Shown here: piece after piece, positions 52,898 through 63,925 of the stretch
Layout of the letters: every line of letters begins with the position of its first letter
Position numbering within the stretch: position 1 is the first letter of the stretch
Virus record (IMG/VR): IMGVR_UViG_3300020037_004820
Strand: one strand, 5' to 3'
From: a virus
Taxonomy: Duplodnaviria > Caudoviricetes
DNA length: 64,000 nt
The notes under the pieces: generated by a model
Databases searched by the model: none
Told to the model about the DNA's origin: nothing
The model's input: the letters and a program-made list of their open reading frames with translations, nothing else
Made by a program: the position numbers and the translations under genes

Positions 52898-54442
52898 ATG
52901 AAAGTTTACAGTGCTGATTCCGATTTTGACGTTAAAGTAGCAAAATCGTTGAATTTATTAACTTCATATGTTTTAGCAACATATGGACCTTTTGGAAAGA
53001 ATATATTATTGACAAAAGATGGAACAACTTTACTAACAAAAGACGGAGTAACTGTTGCAAAATCTATAACATCTAAAGATAAAACAGAAAATGCTATATT
53101 AGATATAATGAAGCAAGTTGCGGATAAAACTGTTAAAGATGCAGGAGATGGAACAACTACATCAATCTTATTTTTAAAACATTTTGTTGAGAAAATAAAA
53201 GCAACAATAACTGCTTTTCCTTTTATTCCATCTACTAAAATTAGAGAAGTTTTTGAAGAAGAATTAAAAATCTTCTTAAGAGAATTAGAGAACTTTTCAA
53301 CAGATGTGAATTCTAAGGAATTGCTAACTCATGTGGCTTTCATGGCTTCTAACGGTGACAAACTTATTGCAGATTTAGTCGCAACGTTGATTGACCAAGT
53401 TGGCGCAACCGGCTCGGTATCTATAAAAAATTCTAAAACAGGAAAGACCTATATAGATATTGTAGAAGGTTTGAAATTTAAATCCGCAGTAGCTTCTGCA
53501 TCATTTTTAGACGATTTACAAGAGAAAAAAATTCTAACAGATTGTGTTATAGTTGTATCTAATACAACTATTAACCTATCAGATGATCTAATAAATCTTC
53601 TAAGAGATTGTGTTGAAAATAAAAAATCATTACTGTTCGTATGCCCCAATATGGACGAAAAAGCATTATTGACAATTATCACGAATGTCCAGATGAAAAG
53701 AGGACTACAATGTTGTGTAGTCTCTCCCTCTTATTTAGGAATAGAGAAATTAGAGGTTTTTGAGGATGTTGCTTTAATAGCAAATACCTCTGTCAACACT
53801 GTTCAAACATTGACTAGAACGAAAGTGAGTGAATGGGGTTACGCAAAGACCGTCGAGGTGACACGCGGCTCGACCATCCTAATCGACGCAGCCGCTAAGC
53901 CTGAGATTCTGGACAAAGCAATCGAGGGCCTACGTGGTAGGCTACAGGCCGAAGAGGACGACGCTACCAGCAAGCGTCTCGCGTCACGCATTGACCGCTT
54001 GACCTCTACACTCGGCATATTGAATATAGGTGGAGCAACCGATGCAGAAATTATAGAAAAGCACCATCGTGTTGAGGACGCAATAGAATCGTGCCATTCG
54101 GCCATGCGCAAAGGAGTTGTGCCGGGGGGCGGAAGTTCACTCTCTCATTTGGCTGTTATATTCTCATCCAATACCGGGGACGCATTAGTTGATTATGTAC
54201 GTAATGTAATACGCTTCGTTTGTAAACAACCTGCGGCACTGCTCTACAATGGAAACAATGAATTTGTTCAAACAGAAAATCTAAAGATAAAAAAAGTCTT
54301 AGATTTAAGATCAAATTCTTTTGTTGATCCCATTGAAAATGGTTTAGTGGAAGCAGTTTGGACGATTCAATCAGCTATGTATAATGCATTCAGTAGTGCT
54401 TGGTTACTATGTCAATCATATGGTTCTGTAATAGAAGAATAA
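52898..54442 (+). CDS. groEL: GroEL-like chaperonin
   Basis: T.GP.G.N, TKDGVTVAKSI, AGDGTTT, GGAT..E..E...R.EDA, GVVPGGG. Confidence 0.92.
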   Translation: MKVYSADSDFDVKVAKSLNLLTSYVLATYGPFGKNILLTKDGTTLLTKDGVTVAKSITSKDKTENAILDIMKQVADKTVKDAGDGTTTSILFLKHFVEKIKATITAFPFIPSTKIREVFEEELKIFLRELENFSTDVNSKELLTHVAFMASNGDKLIADLVATLIDQVGATGSVSIKNSKTGKTYIDIVEGLKFKSAVASASFLDDLQEKKILTDCVIVVSNTTINLSDDLINLLRDCVENKKSLLFVCPNMDEKALLTIITNVQMKRGLQCCVVSPSYLGIEKLEVFEDVALIANTSVNTVQTLTRTKVSEWGYAKTVEVTRGSTILIDAAAKPEILDKAIEGLRGRLQAEEDDATSKRLASRIDRLTSTLGILNIGGATDAEIIEKHHRVEDAIESCHSAMRKGVVPGGGSSLSHLAVIFSSNTGDALVDYVRNVIRFVCKQPAALLYNGNNEFVQTENLKIKKVLDLRSNSFVDPIENGLVEAVWTIQSAMYNAFSSAWLLCQSYGSVIEE

Positions 54443-57848: not shown

Positions 57849-58394
57849 TTACACAGCATCAAATGAGATGTCATCAATAGGATATAGAACTAGTGTAGAG
57901 TTCTTTTTGGAATTATATGTACCTTCGCTAGAGGGGTCCAAAAAGACCTCCTCGATAAGTTCAGCATTTTCATATATGAGCAGATGTCTTTCGGTTGCCC
58001 ATTCTAAACGTTTACAAAATGCATTAGCAACTGAAATGCCTACTCCAAAGCTCTGATAAGCATGGAACAATTTGGATTCACATTGACATGCGTGCAATTC
58101 TTCTAAAAGAAGACGTATTACTCGTTTACCTGCATCGGGATGCATCATACTATAATCAGGAATGTCATAAAAATTCATATAAATTGACCGATGTTCTTTA
58201 TCTATATGAATATCTGTATTAAAATGTCCGCGATTAATTGATAAGAAATTATCAATTGAAATCATTATCATTTGACGAACGCCATCACGTTTATAATTTG
58301 GGAGATACATTTCTGGACGCATTTTAACAGCGTCTAGCCCTTTAAGGACTTTAATCTCATGTTGAGGATATTGTTCGTAATCCATATCAGGCAT
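57849..58394 (-). CDS. stand-alone degenerate GyrB/ParE N-terminal GHKL domain
   Basis: Y....IKVLKGLDAV..RP.MY, IDN, MHP..G, LHA, GVGISVANA; ATG 58394 with RBS AAGGA. Confidence 0.8.
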   Translation of the reverse strand: MPDMDYEQYPQHEIKVLKGLDAVKMRPEMYLPNYKRDGVRQMIMISIDNFLSINRGHFNTDIHIDKEHRSIYMNFYDIPDYSMMHPDAGKRVIRLLLEELHACQCESKLFHAYQSFGVGISVANAFCKRLEWATERHLLIYENAELIEEVFLDPSSEGTYNSKKNSTLVLYPIDDISFDAV

Positions 58395-58427
58395 TTTATT
58401 TTTTCCTTTAGCAGATTGAATCTTAAA

Positions 58428-58453
58428 CGAAAAGGCGGCCAATTGGCCGCCTT
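58428..58453 (-). terminator. rho-independent terminator
   Basis: AAGGCGGCCAATTGGCCGCCTT palindrome with a T-rich tail on the - strand. Confidence 0.8.
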
Positions 58454-58469
58454 ATGTCATTCAATTATA

Positions 58470-58991
58470 TTACAGATCAATCGTGCCTTCCCACGGCGTC
58501 TGCAATTCGATTCCTTCTTTGGTAAGAACCAGCTTAACTCCATCACGGGCAAGCTCGTGATTTCCGTTTCGCAGATGACGATAAGTTGCCTTATCTCGCC
58601 AAGAAGGTGCAGCGTCGTAACAGAAATTCTCGATTTCTTCCAGAATGGCAAGAACTGCATTCTGATTTTCTTGAACAAAGACTGCAAGCTCACAGGGAGC
58701 ATTGGTCAACATATCGATGGCGCGCGAACGTCCACCCTTTTGCTCGGTATACGAGACAATGCGCTTCACGCTCTTATTGTACTTCGGCTCGAAAACCTGT
58801 CCATAAACAGGAACCTTATAATCTCCCTTGGAGAAGAAGTCCTTCGGACTGCAAAAAGCATATCCAAAGCGGACACTTCGGGTAGGGGAATTGCGATCAT
58901 TGTCCATTTGATACGCAACAGTAACTCGGCCAGAGCCCATACCAAAATAATGGAACTTGACACGATCCTCGAAAGTAACTTGATCACTCAT
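58470..58991 (-). CDS. hypothetical phage protein (GYAFCSPKD.F family)
   Basis: motif G.A.CS..D.F.K; higher GC; ATG 58991 with RBS AAGGA. Confidence 0.6.
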   Translation of the reverse strand: MSDQVTFEDRVKFHYFGMGSGRVTVAYQMDNDRNSPTRSVRFGYAFCSPKDFFSKGDYKVPVYGQVFEPKYNKSVKRIVSYTEQKGGRSRAIDMLTNAPCELAVFVQENQNAVLAILEEIENFCYDAAPSWRDKATYRHLRNGNHELARDGVKLVLTKEGIELQTPWEGTIDL

Positions 58992-59026
58992 GATTATTTC
59001 CTTTCCGGTGAAAAACCGGCTCACTC

Positions 59027-59227
59027 TCACTTACGTAATAGGTCCGGCCGAGCCTCTGTCAAGGGCTTTGTTGCCGATTTGCGTGTAGCCTTCAAAACTT
59101 CTCTAAGCTCTTTAATCTCTGTTTCACTTAATTCATGTTTAGTATGATTGCGTTTATGGAAAAATAAGTGAATAAATACACAAAGCGCAGAACATAAAAG
59201 AACATGAAAAACTATTTCAATTAGCAT
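59027..59227 (-). CDS. small membrane protein
   Basis: N-terminal TM helix, RBS AAGGA. Confidence 0.5.
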   Translation of the reverse strand: MLIEIVFHVLLCSALCVFIHLFFHKRNHTKHELSETEIKELREVLKATRKSATKPLTEARPDLLRK

Positions 59228-59241
59228 TGTTATTCCTTGTA

Positions 59242-59430
59242 TTAATCTAGCAGCAAACCGTATTGAGTAACTACTTCATCTGTAGCAGATTCTTTAATAA
59301 TAAAGGTCTGTCTTACACCTTTCTTTTCAGAAAGCTTTGATGCTATCGTTTGCAACTCTGTAAGAGAGTTCGATGTTCTCAAAATTTCTTCAGTCAGTTC
59401 GTTTATTAAAATATATTTAGCCTTGTCCAT
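59242..59430 (-). CDS. hypothetical protein
   Basis: RBS AGGAG. Confidence 0.5.
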   Translation of the reverse strand: MDKAKYILINELTEEILRTSNSLTELQTIASKLSEKKGVRQTFIIKESATDEVVTQYGLLLD

Positions 59431-59449: not shown

Positions 59450-59965
59450 TTAGATAATTCCTTTTTGTTTCAAGATATTAAACGTAGACTCCAGTAGCTT
59501 CTGATCATTTTTGCAAAAATATGCAGTTTTTGTAGAAATAGCTGGAGCAATACCTGGACTCCATGTAATAGTAGGAGTGGTATCTATAACTGGTAAATTC
59601 GCAGGAATTGGCGGATTTGCGGGAGCTGGATTGATAGACGATATTATTTGTCCCCAAGTTTGAGCAGCAGGAACAATAATTGGATCTATAGGAGTATACG
59701 AAATATACTTTCCATTATCAGTTTTAGATATACGAGTAGGATCGTAATTCTTCATATATAAATGAACAAGAGATTTAATTCTAGAATGTTCAACTTGAAC
59801 AAATTCCTCTCCATATTTATTGACATAAACATCCGAATCATTAACATCTTCTGGTCGAAGATTTAGTTCACGGACTGCAACCGTAACATCCCATGCACTA
59901 AACGTAACTTTCTGTTCTATAAAAGTGTCGATTAGACCAATAACAGCTTCGTGTAAGTAATTCAT
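59450..59965 (-). CDS. hypothetical protein downstream of PARP
   Basis: FSAWDVT..VR winged-helix-like N-domain plus Pro-rich linker. Confidence 0.55.
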   Translation of the reverse strand: MNYLHEAVIGLIDTFIEQKVTFSAWDVTVAVRELNLRPEDVNDSDVYVNKYGEEFVQVEHSRIKSLVHLYMKNYDPTRISKTDNGKYISYTPIDPIIVPAAQTWGQIISSINPAPANPPIPANLPVIDTTPTITWSPGIAPAISTKTAYFCKNDQKLLESTFNILKQKGII

Positions 59966-59975
59966 TTATTTCCCT

Positions 59976-61226
59976 TTATTTGCACTCTAACAGGTGCGTT
60001 ATGTGTATTTGCTCATTTTTATAGACAATAAGCTCATCATGGTATAATCCACAATCACCAGCTCTTGCCCAAGTTGAATCATATCCAGAAGGTGGGGAAC
60101 CTGTTCTAGAAGGATTATACATTTTACCCATTGCAAAATTGCATATAAATAACCATCCACTTGGAGCAGTTGCTCCACCCCATCTACCAAATGTATATCC
60201 TAATGCTTTAGTTGATTGTACAGCGCCATAGACACCGTTACCAAACATTTTACCCGCAATATATGCGGTTGAAGGAGGAGAAACCTTCATACCTGATTTA
60301 AGAATACTTAGCAAGTTTGCTTCCGATGTACCATGGAATACTCTAGTCAAATTACCCAGAGTTTTACCTGATTTATCAAATGCGTCACTGTTATCTTTTA
60401 TATCAACGATATAAGCGTTCTTAATGCGAACATTATCATAACCATGAGATTTTCTCTTAGAATTTTCAAACCATTTATCAATTTCTTTGAAATCTGGATG
60501 AGAATTTTCTAGAGTGTCCAGCTTTACGTTGAATATTTGTTCTTCTACAGAAGAATCTACTTTACTTTCTTTAACAGAAGAAGTAAAAGATGTGTAGGAT
60601 GCTTCAAGCGAATCGAGCGTGTTAAGCTCTTGCATAAAATCCATAGAATCTACAAAGTGCTGAACTTTGGTCATACCAAAATCATGTGGTATAAGCATAA
60701 GATATCGATTTATCGCTGGTCCAAAATGCTCATCTTTTCCATTTTCTTTTTGAGCTTTTATAAGTGCCAAGAGATTTCTTGCTTCATCAATAGACGCTGG
60801 CGTAACAATGCCCAAAGGTGTACTGAATAGACCTGTATTTACGTCATACGTAATTTTCGTAGAAGACGTAATGTTATGAATATTAGACATTGCAAGTCGT
60901 TCAATTAGTTTTTCCAACTGAGGAGAACTAAATTGAATTTGCTTTTTAGCAACTTCTTTTACATCTGATACGACAGATACAGTTGTCTTATTTGATTCGA
61001 CAGCTATACCGTCAAATTCAATATAACCTTTCTTTTTCTTTTCTTTGATTTTTTTATCTAGAAAAGATTGACCGCCAGGAAAAGGACCTTCTGCTTGTCC
61101 AGCGTATCCAACTCGTCCATATAGAACAAAAACATTCCCATCATCGTGAAGGTCGGCATTCCAGAATTTATTATTGTTCCCATCTATATTGGAACAAATC
61201 ATTCTAACTGTTTTTGTTACTGCCAT
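59976..61226 (-). CDS. WGR-domain poly(ADP-ribose) polymerase (PARP-like ADP-ribosyltransferase)
   Basis: NNNKFW, YGRVG (WGR); TPLG, Y..LIPHDFG (regulatory domain); FHGT, GKMFGNGVY, STKALGY, GYDS, DELIVY (H-Y-E triad). Confidence 0.93.
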   Translation of the reverse strand: MAVTKTVRMICSNIDGNNNKFWNADLHDDGNVFVLYGRVGYAGQAEGPFPGGQSFLDKKIKEKKKKGYIEFDGIAVESNKTTVSVVSDVKEVAKKQIQFSSPQLEKLIERLAMSNIHNITSSTKITYDVNTGLFSTPLGIVTPASIDEARNLLALIKAQKENGKDEHFGPAINRYLMLIPHDFGMTKVQHFVDSMDFMQELNTLDSLEASYTSFTSSVKESKVDSSVEEQIFNVKLDTLENSHPDFKEIDKWFENSKRKSHGYDNVRIKNAYIVDIKDNSDAFDKSGKTLGNLTRVFHGTSEANLLSILKSGMKVSPPSTAYIAGKMFGNGVYGAVQSTKALGYTFGRWGGATAPSGWLFICNFAMGKMYNPSRTGSPPSGYDSTWARAGDCGLYHDELIVYKNEQIHITHLLECK

Positions 61227-61227
61227 A

Positions 61228-61698
61228 TTAAGGACGCACACCTTTTATAGAAAGGACCATATATTCAGAAGGATTATGTTGATCAACCATATGAATCCAA
61301 TTCAATTCTCTAGGATCAACTAAGCGAATCTGCTCTTCGTCGGAAGATATTTCTATAAAGTAATATCTTCCAAAGGAATCTTTGTCACCATTTGTATAAC
61401 CTGTTAGGACCCTTTCAGACCCATCTTTTTTATTAAAAGAAACAGTTATAATTTCGTTTACATTTTCTTCTAATACATTAGCAAGAGTAGTTTTGCTAAC
61501 ATTTTCCATAAGAGCATATCTAGGAAGAGACGTTCTATTTAGATCGACATATCCATAATCTTGATTAGCTTTTAAAGCTTCAATAAGAGATTTAGCTACA
61601 ATGTCTTTTGCAAGACCCATAGGATCTAACGCGACTTCGCATTTAGAAATAATTTCAATTTTATTGTCTTTATTCTTTTTCCAAATTTTTATCGTCAT
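61228..61698 (-). CDS. WYL_2/Sm-SH3-like protein
   Basis: TVSFNKKDGSERVL.G and R.VD.R...W motifs. Confidence 0.5.
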   Translation of the reverse strand: MTIKIWKKNKDNKIEIISKCEVALDPMGLAKDIVAKSLIEALKANQDYGYVDLNRTSLPRYALMENVSKTTLANVLEENVNEIITVSFNKKDGSERVLTGYTNGDKDSFGRYYFIEISSDEEQIRLVDPRELNWIHMVDQHNPSEYMVLSIKGVRP

Positions 61699-61765
61699 TG
61701 TCTTTTCCTTTTCTTGTTCGTGACGAAACAATGATTTTTCATTGTTTCCCAAGAAGAACTCATGA

Positions 61766-62185
61766 TTATTTCTCCGCAGGACCTTTAACTAAAGCCAATG
61801 TTCCAACAATTAGATCTCTAGTTCTTTTAATAGGAAAACCAAAAGTCAAAACTCCTACTAAAGATTCTAGTATTGTTCCAGAATATTCTTCTAAACGAGA
61901 ACCGGATTTCATGTTATTATAAACTTTACGTAATTGATCTTTTTCAAATTTAGAAAGTTCGATCACTCCTCTAGAATTTGAATTCAATATATAATCATTG
62001 ATATACCATAATGCTTTTTCAAGATCAACGTAAGTTGATCCTTTATAGGGAGCTCTACAAATATATTTTATAGCGTTACCTAAATCGAACGCAGCACGAT
62101 CTGTCAACAAATCGATAAGTTCTATTGTCTCTATTTTAATAGATTCTTGATTATAGTGAGATGGATGATTTACTTGTTCTGTCAT
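61766..62185 (-). CDS. DUF3310 / T7 gp1.7 nucleotide-kinase-like protein
   Basis: VNHPSHY, IE.I, F.LGNAIKYI.RA..KG...DL.KA.WYI. Confidence 0.85.
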   Translation of the reverse strand: MTEQVNHPSHYNQESIKIETIELIDLLTDRAAFDLGNAIKYICRAPYKGSTYVDLEKALWYINDYILNSNSRGVIELSKFEKDQLRKVYNNMKSGSRLEEYSGTILESLVGVLTFGFPIKRTRDLIVGTLALVKGPAEK

Positions 62186-62192
62186 TTTTACC

Positions 62193-62654
62193 TCAAGGCC
62201 AATCACAAACTGTCCAACTTATATCAGGATAATTTTGAGAAATTTCTAGCAAAACTTCTTCTGTCTTGTACCAAGGTACACCAAAAAGACCTGAGTTGAA
62301 TTTGTTCGAATATACATCCGACACCCCTAGCATACGCGCCATTTCGAATATGTCAAGCACGGCTGTTTTTGTAGAGGATATAATCTCATTTACAGAGTCA
62401 ACGTCTGATCCAAACGCATAGGACGTAAATAAACATCCAATGCGTCTATCAGAATCGTGTACCACAAGTCCTGTACCTAGTAAGGTTTTACCATCTCGTT
62501 CACAAATTGCTCTATATTGGGAGGCAGCTTCTGGGTATCTATCCCTGAACACTCTAGCTATTCCTGATCCCCAAACTCCTAAACAATTACAAGCATGTAC
62601 AAGCATTGCTTCTTTTGGAGCATCAAAGAGATCCATTTTCTTTATTTCAATCAC
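62193..62654 (-). CDS. macrodomain protein (Poa1p-like ADP-ribose hydrolase)
   Basis: DLF, LVHACNC.G.WG.GIA..F...YP, CLFTS..FG, KFNSGLFGVPW. Confidence 0.9.
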   Translation of the reverse strand: MIEIKKMDLFDAPKEAMLVHACNCLGVWGSGIARVFRDRYPEAASQYRAICERDGKTLLGTGLVVHDSDRRIGCLFTSYAFGSDVDSVNEIISSTKTAVLDIFEMARMLGVSDVYSNKFNSGLFGVPWYKTEEVLLEISQNYPDISWTVCDWP

Positions 62655-62986
62655 CAGTTTGTCCTTTTTATAGCTTCTAACAGTCTAGTGTGCACATCTT
62701 CTGTTCTATGTTCATCCCATTCTGGTCCACCTTCTTTTATAATTTTTTGAAATAAAGGTAGATATTTTTGTTCTACATGAAAACTTATTTGACCAGTATC
62801 TAAAACTAGACCAAGTATAGGCCATCCTGGTAAATGATGTCTCCAATACGCTCGATCTTTATAAGTTAAACATAATAATATAAATAACAGAGTTCTACTC
62901 TCGTAGAGTTCTCCAAATGTATGAAAACCATCACTTATAAGTGATGTATCAGTCTCTTCATTGATTAGATCATCTATTGTTATCAT
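62651..62986 (-). CDS. conserved phage protein (SDG.HTF.ELY...WD.H family)
   Basis: ISDGFHTFGELYESR, GQISFH, PEWDEH. Confidence 0.65.
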   Translation of the reverse strand: MITIDDLINEETDTSLISDGFHTFGELYESRTLLFILLCLTYKDRAYWRHHLPGWPILGLVLDTGQISFHVEQKYLPLFQKIIKEGGPEWDEHRTEDVHTRLLEAIKRTNW

Positions 62987-63264
62987 GGATAAATTACCAG
63001 TCCATCATATTGATTAAATGCTTTTAAAGCGAGAACTGCTTTGTTTTTGGCAACTTCAAAGGCAGCTTCTTCATATTGATTATACCCATCTGAATCAACA
63101 TAAAAATATTGGATAGATTTCCATTCTTGAGAGGTTTTCGTTTTTCTTAAAAACTTCTTTTTAGAAGTTACGGTCGTTAATTTTTGAAGAGAGAACATTG
63201 GATGAGGTCTATATTCTGATATTTCAAATACGACGCGATATACTGGTGATTTTTCTGTACTCAT
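62983..63264 (-). CDS. hypothetical protein
   Basis: ATGA-coupled ORF. Confidence 0.5.
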   Translation of the reverse strand: MSTEKSPVYRVVFEISEYRPHPMFSLQKLTTVTSKKKFLRKTKTSQEWKSIQYFYVDSDGYNQYEEAAFEVAKNKAVLALKAFNQYDGLVIYP

Positions 63265-63503
63265 AGTTTCACTATTGTTCCTTTTGTATTTATTGCTTGT
63301 TCAGTATCGGTTTCTTCATTGAAAGAAATTATAATAACTGGTATATTTAATTCTTTTGCTTTTTGAATAGAATCCCGTGTTCCATTTGATACGCCATTCC
63401 TTAACGAAGATGTACGCCCTGTTTGATGTTTGTATATACATTTTCTATCCATTCTATGAACTCCTTGTAGGACATATCTACTGCCTATCACACCAACTTT
63501 CAT
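63261..63503 (-). pseudogene. internally deleted SLOG (YspA/DUF2493-like) gene containing an HNH remnant
   Basis: MKVGVIGSR start and NG.S.GT..SI..AK...IPVIII end retained, core missing; the alternative frame 63478-63401 reads DMSYKEFIEWIENVY...*. Confidence 0.7.
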
Positions 63504-63925
63504 TAGTCTTTCTCAACAATCCACATATTAGGATCATTTCGTAAAAGAGCTATTACACTCTTCCATTTGTCATCAGGATTCATATCATTAGTTTCAGCTA
63601 ATGTATCAAATTGATGACGATTACAACCTGCCCAAATTCTAACATTTTCTGGAGGAAGTTCAGATTCTTTATCATAAGAAAATTCCTCAATTTCCGCAGA
63701 GTCGGGTTCGTAATACTCTGTCACTTCATTATAAATCGTCTGTCCAGTAATAGTTAATTGTTTTTTCTTACTTTGTTTTTGAACACGATTATATTCTTCA
63801 CAAAGAACTCCTAAACAACAGAACTTATATTCTCCATTTGCAATATACGCAAGTCTGCTGGTGCCTTTTGTCATAACACCTGATTCTAAAATATCTGCTA
63901 ATCTAAATGCTATTTCTTTTTTCAT
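63503..63925 (-). CDS. hypothetical phage protein (CCLGVLC family)
   Basis: FCCLGVLCE and LAE.ND motifs. Confidence 0.6.
   Translation of the reverse strand: MKKEIAFRLADILESGVMTKGTSRLAYIANGEYKFCCLGVLCEEYNRVQKQSKKKQLTITGQTIYNEVTEYYEPDSAEIEEFSYDKESELPPENVRIWAGCNRHQFDTLAETNDMNPDDKWKSVIALLRNDPNMWIVEKD

What the first reader, a model, noticed from the sequence alone, without database searches (positions are those of the whole stretch)
59450..63503. Candidate phage ADP-ribosylation module: PARP1-like WGR-PARP writer clustered with a macrodomain eraser and a SLOG remnant
Seen: one co-directional, tightly coupled - strand run encodes a SLOG remnant, a hypothetical, a WD.H-motif protein, a Poa1p-type macrodomain, DUF3310, a WYL/SH3-like protein, a PARP and a winged-helix-like hypothetical. 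The ART has the eukaryote-type WGR (YGRVG) + helical regulatory (LIPHDFG) + catalytic layout, with an intact H-Y-E triad (FHGT, GKMFGNGVY, DELIVY). Established: this layout defines the DNA-break-activated PARP1/2/3 enzymes, unlike the T4 Alt/Mod mono-ARTs; macrodomains remove or hydrolyse ADP-ribose; SLOG domains are linked to NAD+/nucleotide handling. Inference: a nucleic-acid-activated, reversible (poly)ADP-ribosylation switch used early for host takeover, DNA-end protection or counter-defence, with the neighbouring small proteins as targets or regulators.
Basis: partly seen in the sequence, partly recalled or inferred. Interest (0 to 1): 0.85.

Follow-up and report, generated by a model that had tools for sequence, protein, structure and literature searches.

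The report
Phage PARP with winged-helix partner
A large uncultured phage encodes an intact PARP enzyme of the kind animal cells use to flag broken DNA; such phage genes are catalogued but untested, and its constant companion is a small two-winged-helix protein just downstream, not the nearby macrodomain.

Summary
A tightly coupled minus-strand run (63925-58470, ending at a terminator) encodes a 421-aa (or 416-aa) WGR + helical regulatory + catalytic PARP with an invariant H-Y-E triad. It also encodes a Poa1p-type macrodomain, DUF3310, a WDGH protein and an internally deleted YAcAr-type SLOG remnant. Only the "WYL" call is below threshold.

Across 34 non-redundant phage PARP loci, the macrodomain lies within 10 kb in 8, spread over at least 5 lineages. 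In 5 complete genomes it lies 43 kb or more away, and 2 complete genomes lack it. This makes it a facultative neighbour, not an obligate eraser.

It belongs to an unannotated family that lies downstream on the same strand in 23-25 of 34 loci. In the reverse test, 19 of 19 informative partner loci have a PARP upstream. The family folds as two winged-helix domains joined by a proline-rich linker; the window's copy lacks the end of the second domain.

PARP loci also sit repeatedly beside ligases, Pnkp and RlaP. Phage PARPs of this layout are already annotated (PHROG 23333, XacN1, Klebsiella phages) but untested. This scan has reported the PARP-partner pair before on other DNA.

The parts
59976..61241 (-). 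PARP: WGR (res 16-75), helical regulatory domain (108-214), ART catalytic domain (250-421). H303/Y338/E403 triad. Alternative ATG start at 61226 gives 416 aa.
   Evidence: Pfam, all three domains over cut-off. PHROG 23333 end to end, E 6e-47. PARP1 catalytic domain E 1e-20 and PARP2 WGR-to-ART E 2e-17. PARP3 WGR E 3e-4. Triad invariant in 30 homologs.
59450..59965 (-). Conserved PARP partner (171 aa): N-terminal winged helix, Pro-rich disordered linker, then a C-terminal winged helix truncated after its first two helices.
   Evidence: BLAST cluster with downstream genes of 20 other PARP loci. Leave-one-out HMM E 4e-12. hhalign E 4e-5. Model pLDDT mostly 84-97 for residues 1-100. Winged-helix structural matches. 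Covers profile positions 1-168 of 201, with no frameshift remnant.
62193..62654 (-). Poa1p-type macrodomain (153 aa).
   Evidence: Pfam Macro 32.5 bits. Yeast Poa1p 6LFT E 3e-21, then chains 5M3I (E 1e-10) and 5M31. PADLOC DarG model E 2e-12. PHROG 335.
63261..63503 (-). Internally deleted YAcAr-type SLOG remnant (80 aa). It keeps the first strand (MKVGVIGSR) and the last ~28 residues and lacks the GGAxGAD core.
   Evidence: Two collinear BLASTP segments to a genuine YAcAr protein, L051:1501-1848 (E 0.009 and 2e-6). No Pfam hit. No longer relatives found.
62651..62986 (-). WDGH-domain protein (111 aa), function unknown. Not a recurrent PARP neighbour.
   Evidence: Pfam PF25311 71 bits. Absent near the PARP in other loci.
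61766..62206 (-). DUF3310 protein (146 aa; 139 aa in public gene calls). Matches PHROGs labelled 'nucleotide kinase'. Not a recurrent PARP neighbour.
   Evidence: Pfam 56 bits. PHROG 11324/236..
61228..61752 (-). 174-aa hypothetical. The WYL_2 similarity is below threshold. Not a recurrent PARP neighbour.
   Evidence: WYL_2 E 0.058, 14 bits against cut-off 26.7..
62983..63264 (-). 93-aa hypothetical in the same coupled run.
   Evidence: ORF. No family.
63503..63925 (-). 140-aa hypothetical, the first gene of the run inside the window. Public precomputed hit to DUF8296.
   Evidence: PHROG 18067 E 1.5e-6. PF26948 in the gene table.
58470..59430 (-). Three further small ORFs (62, 66 and 186 aa) between the partner gene and the terminator. 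No known family.
58432..58453 (-). Intrinsic-terminator-like hairpin (9 bp stem, 7 G-C pairs, T-rich tail), the likely end of the transcription unit.

Best explanation
The core of this locus is a two-gene unit. One gene is a PARP1/2/3-like ADP-ribosyltransferase (WGR sensor, autoinhibitory helical domain, H-Y-E catalytic domain). The other, directly downstream, is a small protein built from winged-helix domains joined by a flexible Pro-rich linker. Shown: the domain architecture, the conserved triad, and the reciprocal gene linkage across many large phages. Inferred: as in PARP1/2/3 and in the two bacterial PARPs assayed in vitro (Herpetosiphon, which required DNA, and C. difficile CD160), the WGR domain binds a nucleic-acid end or nick. 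That binding would release the helical domain so that NAD+ can enter and ADP-ribose, possibly in chains, is transferred. The winged-helix partner would supply nucleic-acid targeting, or would be the main acceptor or regulator. The Poa1p-type macrodomain 1 kb upstream is a facultative accessory. It may trim ADP-ribose products, or it may serve the adjacent ligase/RlaP end-repair genes. It is not an obligate eraser. The SLOG remnant is a decayed gene. DUF3310, WDGH and the other small ORFs are unrelated passengers of the same transcript.
For: Architecture and triad. Partner linkage: it lies downstream on the same strand, 0-2.3 kb away, in 21 of 34 non-redundant loci by BLAST. tblastn adds L030 and L031, making 23 solid. 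Two weak HMM hits, L047 and L048, would make 25. The partner is spread over the whole main clade of the PARP tree, in 21 of 26 rows. In the reverse test, 19 of 19 informative loci found with the partner profile have a PARP upstream. At least 18 contig lengths are shared between the independent PARP and partner hit lists. The window's copy is a member: leave-one-out E 4e-12. Fold: two winged helices with pLDDT 95-98, and the best matches are tandem-WH proteins at probability 0.97-0.99. Macro is facultative. Canonical erasers are sporadic: PARG in 1 of 25 records and ARH in 7 of 25. Published in vitro activity of bacterial WGR-HD-ART PARPs: PMC8120803, PMC5966428.
Against: There is no biochemical evidence for any phage PARP. 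The WGR arginine is not invariant: one clade reads FGVVG, so canonical DNA-break sensing may not be universal. The stretch before the catalytic Glu is about 30 residues shorter than in PARP1, so chain elongation is uncertain. The window's partner lacks the last third of its second winged helix. The partner is missing beside the PARPs of the Klebsiella and Xanthomonas phages and about six other loci. The Foldseek E-values for the partner are weak (2e-3 at best). DNA binding by the partner is inferred from fold alone.
Confidence: 0.6

Rival explanations
1. PARP and macrodomain form a dedicated, reversible writer-eraser switch, and the macrodomain removes what the PARP writes.
For: The macrodomain is 952 bp upstream in the same coupled run. 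A macrodomain of this family lies within 10 kb of the PARP in 8 of 34 loci, scattered over at least 5 lineages of the PARP tree. A random-placement null of 4-10% gives P from 5e-5 to 0.02. Two of these loci also have an ARH hydrolase within 3.5 kb. The macrodomain is related to the TARG1/DarG clade of ADP-ribose hydrolases.
Against: In 5 of 7 complete PARP genomes the macrodomain is 43 kb or more from the PARP, and in 2 it is absent. Most phage Poa1p-like macrodomains occur without a PARP. Its closest characterised relative is a small-molecule phosphatase (Poa1p), not a PAR glycohydrolase. The null model ignores the clustering of accessory genes and shared ancestry.
Confidence: 0.25
2. The macrodomain belongs to a nucleic-acid end-repair set or to counter-defence, independently of the PARP. 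It would clear ADP-ribose-1''-phosphate or related NAD-derived products of RNA repair, or strip ADP-ribose placed on phage DNA by host DarT-like toxins.
For: The best hit is Poa1p, an Appr-1''-p phosphatase, and the DarG model also matches. An RlaP nucleotidyltransferase and an ATP-dependent ligase lie 3-7 kb upstream in the same run. Iyer et al. 2021 (PMC7824862) propose exactly these roles for jumbo-phage macrodomains.
Against: No Tpt1/KptA, the enzyme that would generate the Appr>p precursor, is found in the 40% of the genome available. The enrichment of macrodomains near PARP genes would be left unexplained.
Confidence: 0.4
3. The PARP acts on nucleic-acid ends rather than on proteins. It would ADP-ribosylate terminal phosphates of broken DNA or RNA, as PARP2/3 and some other PARPs do in vitro. 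This would work together with the neighbouring end-healing and sealing enzymes.
For: An end-processing enzyme lies within 8 kb of the PARP in 19 of 34 loci: Rnl1 in 8 (one clade), ATP-dependent ligase in 5 (3 lineages, including this window), Pnkp in 5, and RlaP in this window and in FBKp34. The WGR domain is closest to that of PARP3. Reversible ADP-ribosylation of DNA and RNA ends is documented (PMC8385414, PMC6582358; titles and abstracts only).
Against: The Rnl1 association is a single clade, so it may be synteny by descent. Large phages cluster such genes anyway. There is no direct evidence for the substrate.
Confidence: 0.2
4. The PARP is a host-takeover or anti-defence effector that modifies host proteins or drains NAD+, as T4 Alt/ModA/ModB modify host proteins. 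Nucleic-acid sensing would play no part.
For: Iyer et al. 2021 suggest that phage PARPs act like the T4 ARTs but add chains. The gene sits among small ORFs of accessory type, on the strand opposite the structural and replication genes.
Against: WGR and the autoinhibitory helical domain are retained, and both Pfam models are found in many relatives. This argues for ligand-gated rather than constitutive activity. A dedicated winged-helix partner is not expected for a simple toxin-like effector.
Confidence: 0.15

Closest known systems
Bacterial PARPs: Herpetosiphon aurantiacus HaPARP and Clostridioides difficile CD160 CdPARP (PMC5966428, PMC8120803)
   Same: The same minimal WGR + PARP_reg + PARP_cat architecture in about 420 aa, the H-Y-E triad, and a Y-G-R variant of the WGR motif, which is reported as common in bacterial PARPs. 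Both enzymes make PAR in vitro, and HaPARP needs DNA.
   Different: For those bacteria, reversal by a cognate PARG is reported. Here no PARG is found in the available contig, and it is present in only 1 of 25 PARP-phage records. This enzyme is phage-borne and linked to a tandem winged-helix partner, which those papers do not describe.
Annotated phage PARPs: PHROG 23333; Xanthomonas phage XacN1 ORF414 (BBA65562.1, cited by Iyer et al. 2021, PMC7824862); Klebsiella phages 05F01, FBKp34 and KP13-16; Cellulophaga phi4:1 and Aeromonas Aeh1 (Perina et al. 2014, PMC4245714)
   Same: Homologous over the full length at 28-35% identity, with the same three Pfam domains. All are untested experimentally.
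   Different: Those GenBank phages lack the partner gene beside the PARP. The window belongs to the larger environmental clade that has it.
Human PARP1/2/3 C-terminal module (WGR-HD-ART)
   Same: Domain order and catalytic residues. PARP1 catalytic domain E 1e-20, PARP2 aligned from WGR to ART E 2e-17, PARP3 WGR E 3e-4.
   Different: No zinc fingers, BRCT or N-terminal tail. The stretch before the catalytic Glu is about 30 residues shorter. Identity is low.
Yeast Poa1p (PDB 6LFQ-6LFU) and the TARG1/DarG macrodomain clade
   Same: The macrodomain shares the HxCNC...WGxGIA, CLFTS and NSG[IL]FGVPW motifs with Poa1p.
   Different: It is 27 residues shorter than Poa1p. The Ser that the depositors mutated in 6LFT (NGSWGGG) is Val here. 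Its activity is unknown.
YAcAr (DUF2493) SLOG proteins of jumbo phages (Iyer et al. 2021)
   Same: The N-terminal MK[IV]xV[IV]GSR strand and the C-terminal VSxGTxxSIxxAxxxNxPVII segment.
   Different: About 75 central residues, including GGAxGAD, are deleted, and the Pfam model no longer matches.

Membership tests
Clade-1 (PARP1/2/3-like) PARPs | ART catalytic domain with the H-Y-E triad | tested here: met
   PF00644 84.6 bits. H303/Y338/E403 align to the PARP1 triad motifs and are invariant in 30 homologs.
Clade-1 (PARP1/2/3-like) PARPs | Helical regulatory (HD / PARP_reg) domain before the ART domain | tested here: met
   PF02877 30.4 bits against cut-off 26.8, profile positions 2-111 of 135. 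LIPHDFGM aligns with PARP1 LIPHDFGM.
Clade-1 (PARP1/2/3-like) PARPs | WGR domain | tested here: met
   PF05406 31.4 bits against cut-off 22. PARP3 WGR 2EOC E 3e-4, with NNNKF[WY], [WY]GRVG and KKGY conserved.
Clade-1 (PARP1/2/3-like) PARPs | Activation by DNA breaks; synthesis of poly(ADP-ribose) | not testable with these tools
   Needs an enzyme assay. Cautions: the stretch before the catalytic Glu is about 30 residues shorter than in PARP1, and the WGR Arg is replaced in one related clade.
Bacterial PAR system (PARP plus PARG) | A cognate PARG encoded with the PARP | tested here: not met
   No PF10021 match in the own contig (the contig is only about 40% of the genome). 1 of 25 PARP-phage records has one.
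PARP-associated tandem winged-helix partner (unnamed family) | Sequence membership, and position downstream of a PARP on the same strand | tested here: met
   Leave-one-out HMM E 4e-12. 11 nt downstream of the PARP. N-terminal winged-helix fold with pLDDT mostly 84-97.
PARP-associated tandem winged-helix partner (unnamed family) | A complete second (C-terminal) winged helix | tested here: not met
   The window's copy ends at profile position 168 of 201, with no remnant in other frames. The full-length relative has both domains.
Poa1p-like macrodomains | Macro fold with closest similarity to Poa1p | tested here: met
   PF01661 32.5 bits. 6LFT E 3e-21.
Poa1p-like macrodomains | ADP-ribose-1''-phosphate phosphatase or ADP-ribosylhydrolase activity | not testable with these tools
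   Needs an assay. From memory only: the TARG1/DarG catalytic Lys position appears to be Ser here (LFTS), as in Poa1p.
YAcAr / DUF2493 SLOG | Match to the family model and presence of the GGAxGAD motif | tested here: not met
   No PF10686 hit. The motif region is deleted. Only the termini match a genuine member, so this is a remnant, not a member.
WYL / WYL_2 domain proteins | Match to the family model | tested here: not met
   E 0.058, 14.1 bits against cut-off 26.7, 24 residues.

The most novel reading that the evidence does not exclude
The PARP and its tandem winged-helix partner form a nucleic-acid-end ADP-ribosylation ('capping') system that works with the phage's ligase, Pnkp and RlaP end-repair genes. 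The partner would hold the broken DNA or RNA, the WGR-gated PARP would ADP-ribosylate the terminal phosphate or the partner, and the Poa1p/TARG1-clade macrodomain would uncap it. This would give non-eukaryotic PARPs their first physiological role.
Probability: 0.15. Interest if true: 0.85.

Novelty: new variant of a known kind. Interest (0 to 1): 0.55.

Why it matters
PARP1-like enzymes outside eukaryotes have no known physiological role or substrate, and the papers found here list the target of the bacterial enzymes as unknown. This family is abundant in large environmental phages: at least 1,509 metagenomic proteins and 38 IMG/VR loci. A partner gene with strict reciprocal linkage gives a concrete two-protein system to reconstitute. 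The recurrent ligase, Pnkp, RlaP and macrodomain neighbours suggest where to look for substrates. The analysis also corrects an appealing but weakly supported writer-eraser reading.

Tried and rejected
1. Complex prediction of the PARP (A4) with the partner (A3) returned no verdict (score 0.00, below the mark). This is not evidence either way.
2. megablast of the region against GenBank phages found no match.
3. tblastn of all 15 window proteins of the run against the first 11 PARP loci found only the PARP, plus a weak Macro hit in 05F01.
4. I tested whether the 62-aa ORF downstream of the partner encodes the partner's missing C-terminus. It does not (hhalign E 0.5; six-frame HMM search).
5. 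A search for longer relatives of the SLOG remnant found none. Pfam at E 10 and YAcAr on the own contig also found nothing. The remnant was recognised only by comparison with a genuine YAcAr protein from a related phage.
6. No Tpt1/KptA and no bacterial-type PARG in the own contig.
7. The promoter scan was no better than chance: 39 sites found against 38.7 expected.
8. PADLOC gave no defence-system hit for the PARP or the partner.
9. Literature searches for experimental work on a phage PARP, and for WDGH, found nothing relevant.
10. Rnl1 next to the PARP is not an independent association: all 8 loci form one clade.

Full report
**Source and layout.** The window is part of a 75.5-kb IMG/VR viral contig estimated to be about 40% complete. 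An identical PARP protein is on record with a longest contig of 221 kb. The plus strand of the window carries major head, tail sheath, RNR, DnaB, DNA polymerase, an exonuclease and a GroEL-like chaperonin. This is therefore a large myovirus-type phage. From about 55 kb onward the coding switches to the minus strand.

**Observation.** The run continues upstream beyond the window's end. Downstream it ends at a strong terminator-like hairpin at 58453-58432.

Pfam places the 59976-61241 ORF over the curated cut-offs of WGR, PARP_reg and PARP, and PHROG 23333 covers it end to end. phmmer against the PDB aligns it with the PARP1 catalytic domain (E 1e-20) and with PARP2 from WGR through ART (E 2e-17). 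FHGT, GKMFGNGVY and DELIVY lie on the WHGS, GYMFGKGIY and NEYIVY motifs of PARP1. H303, Y338 and E403 are invariant in 30 phage homologs. The WGR domain is closest to that of human PARP3 (E 3e-4) and keeps NNNKF[WY], [WY]GRVG and KKGY. The stretch between residue 377 and the catalytic Glu is about 30 residues shorter than in PARP1.

The macrodomain's best solved relative is yeast Poa1p (E 3e-21). Next come 5M3I (deposited as 'RNase III inhibitor', E 1e-10) and 5M31 ('Appr-1-p processing domain protein'), which I recall, from memory only, as the DarG macrodomains. It also matches the PADLOC DarG model. DUF3310 and WDGH are clear hits, and WYL_2 is below threshold.

**The SLOG remnant.** No profile detects it, and no longer relatives were found. 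I then fetched a genuine YAcAr protein from a related PARP-bearing phage (66.5 bits). The 80-aa ORF matches it collinearly at residues 1-9, and at residues 33-60 against 85-112 of the YAcAr protein (E 2e-6). The central ~75 residues, which carry GGAxGAD, are gone.

**What travels with the PARP.** I collected 38 distinct IMG/VR loci plus three GenBank phages and reduced them to 34 non-redundant PARP loci. I called genes and clustered all neighbours within 8 kb (6 kb for the three GenBank loci).

- None of DUF3310, WDGH, the WYL-like protein, the 93-aa ORF, the 140-aa ORF or the SLOG remnant recurs beside the PARP in another locus.
- One family does recur. It is a protein of 166-271 aa, mostly 170-210, that lies downstream on the same strand. 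It is often adjacent and at most 2.3 kb away, and it is present in 21 of 34 loci by BLAST. tblastn adds L030 and L031, and two weak HMM hits (L047, L048) are possible further members.
hhalign gives E 4e-5, and a profile built without it gives E 4e-12.
- On a maximum-likelihood PARP tree the partner is spread through the whole main clade, in 21 of 26 rows.
- In the reverse test, 19 of 20 IMG/VR loci found with the partner profile over its full length have a PARP upstream on the same strand. The one exception has only 596 bp of contig upstream. Three further loci match only the C-terminal domain and have no PARP within the locus.
- The wider protein database holds at least 198 partner homologs, all 'hypothetical' and without Pfam domains, and at least 1,509 PARP homologs. 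At least 18 contig lengths are common to both lists.

**What the partner is.** The model of the window's copy has a confident N-terminal α1-β-α2-(hairpin)-α3-wing domain, then a low-confidence Pro-rich linker and two terminal helices. Its best structural matches are winged-helix DNA binders such as PadR, BlaI/MecI and ArsR, but the E-values are weak.

A full-length relative, folded with 62 sequences (mean pLDDT 87.8), has two winged-helix domains joined by the disordered linker. Its best matches are tandem-WH proteins: YceH/ECL_02571, ESCRT-II, Stn1/p45C, Nse and Rpc5 tWHD, at probability 0.97-0.99 and E from 2e-3. The window's copy stops at profile position 168 of 201. It therefore lacks the third helix and the final strands of the second domain, and no remnant exists in another frame.

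**The macrodomain question.**

- A macrodomain of this family lies within 10 kb of the PARP in 8 of 34 loci, needing at least 5 changes on the tree. This exceeds a naive random-placement expectation, so some linkage is plausible.
- Among the seven complete PARP genomes, five have a macrodomain 43 kb or more away and two have none.
- Bacterial-type PARG occurs in 1 of 25 records and ARH in 7 of 25, near the PARP in two loci.
- Poa1p-like macrodomains occur in 40 GenBank phage records, and only the Xoo-sp13 record also appears among the PARP hits.
- The macrodomain is therefore a facultative accessory. Its closest characterised relative is a small-molecule phosphatase, which leaves open roles in RNA-repair by-product clearance or in counter-defence, as proposed for jumbo phages (PMC7824862).

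**Context.** Upstream in the same run, beyond the window's end, lie an RlaP nucleotidyltransferase and an ATP-dependent ligase. Klebsiella phage FBKp34 shows the same RlaP-macro-PARP order. In other loci the PARP lies near Rnl1 (8 loci, one clade), ATP-dependent ligase (5 loci, 3 lineages), Pnkp (5 loci), YqeY and a histidine phosphatase. In all, 19 of 34 loci have an end-healing or sealing enzyme within 8 kb. This may reflect function, or it may only reflect the clustering of accessory genes. No Tpt1 was found in the available contig.

**Known or new.** Phage PARPs were listed by Perina et al. 2014 (PMC4245714) and by Iyer et al. 2021, who cite the XacN1 protein found here. GenBank annotations of FBKp34 already name all three domains. 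Two bacterial PARPs of this layout are active in vitro, and the Herpetosiphon enzyme required DNA (PMC8120803, PMC5966428). I found no experimental study of a phage PARP and no description of the partner.

Earlier follow-ups of this scan reported a winged-helix partner of PARPs on other genomes. I reached the same conclusion independently before reading them, and I tested it here.

**Verdict.** This is a genuine member of a catalogued but untested enzyme family. Its real fixed companion is a tandem winged-helix protein. The writer-eraser reading is only weakly supported.

Noticed in passing
L019:1889-3025 and L019:4382-5515 (contig beyond the window's end, same strand as the run): An RlaP 'RNA repair pathway' nucleotidyltransferase (89 bits) and an ATP-dependent ligase (DNA_ligase_A_M + OB_2) lie 3-7 kb upstream of the PARP in the same transcriptional direction.
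   Followed up: partly
L011:3165-3872 and L011:5141-5788; also L008, L009, L010, L027, L035: GIY-YIG/NUMOD3 homing-endonuclease genes flank the PARP in relatives. In L011 one sits between the PARP and its partner, which may explain why the partner is displaced by 0.5-1 kb in several loci.
   Followed up: partly
A2 alignment, L009/L010/L011 PARPs: In one PARP clade, the one next to Rnl1, the WGR motif reads FGVVG. The arginine that gives the domain its name is replaced by valine.
   Followed up: no
window 52898-54442 (+), and the ClpP-like gene next to it in public gene calls (L053:15956-16274): The phage encodes a GroEL-type chaperonin (PHROG 5725, E 6e-90) and, according to precomputed Pfam hits, a ClpP protease.
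   Followed up: no
window 57849-58442 (-): A 197-aa ORF directly after the terminator. Another first-stage note reads it as a stand-alone GyrB N-terminal fragment. It has no Pfam hit at E 10 in my scan.
   Followed up: no
L028 and L031 (G012, G015): These two PARP loci carry macrodomain, DNA ligase, PARP, partner and an ARH-type hydrolase within about 7 kb. This is the fullest ADP-ribose gene set seen among the relatives.
   Followed up: partly
L053, L054 (JGI samples 3300005664 and 3300020049): The same phage, with an identical PARP and the same gene order, was assembled from at least two other metagenomes.
   Followed up: no
L075-L077: Three viral contigs encode proteins that match only the partner's C-terminal winged-helix domain (residues 141-195) and have no PARP nearby. 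The second domain therefore also exists in other contexts.
   Followed up: no
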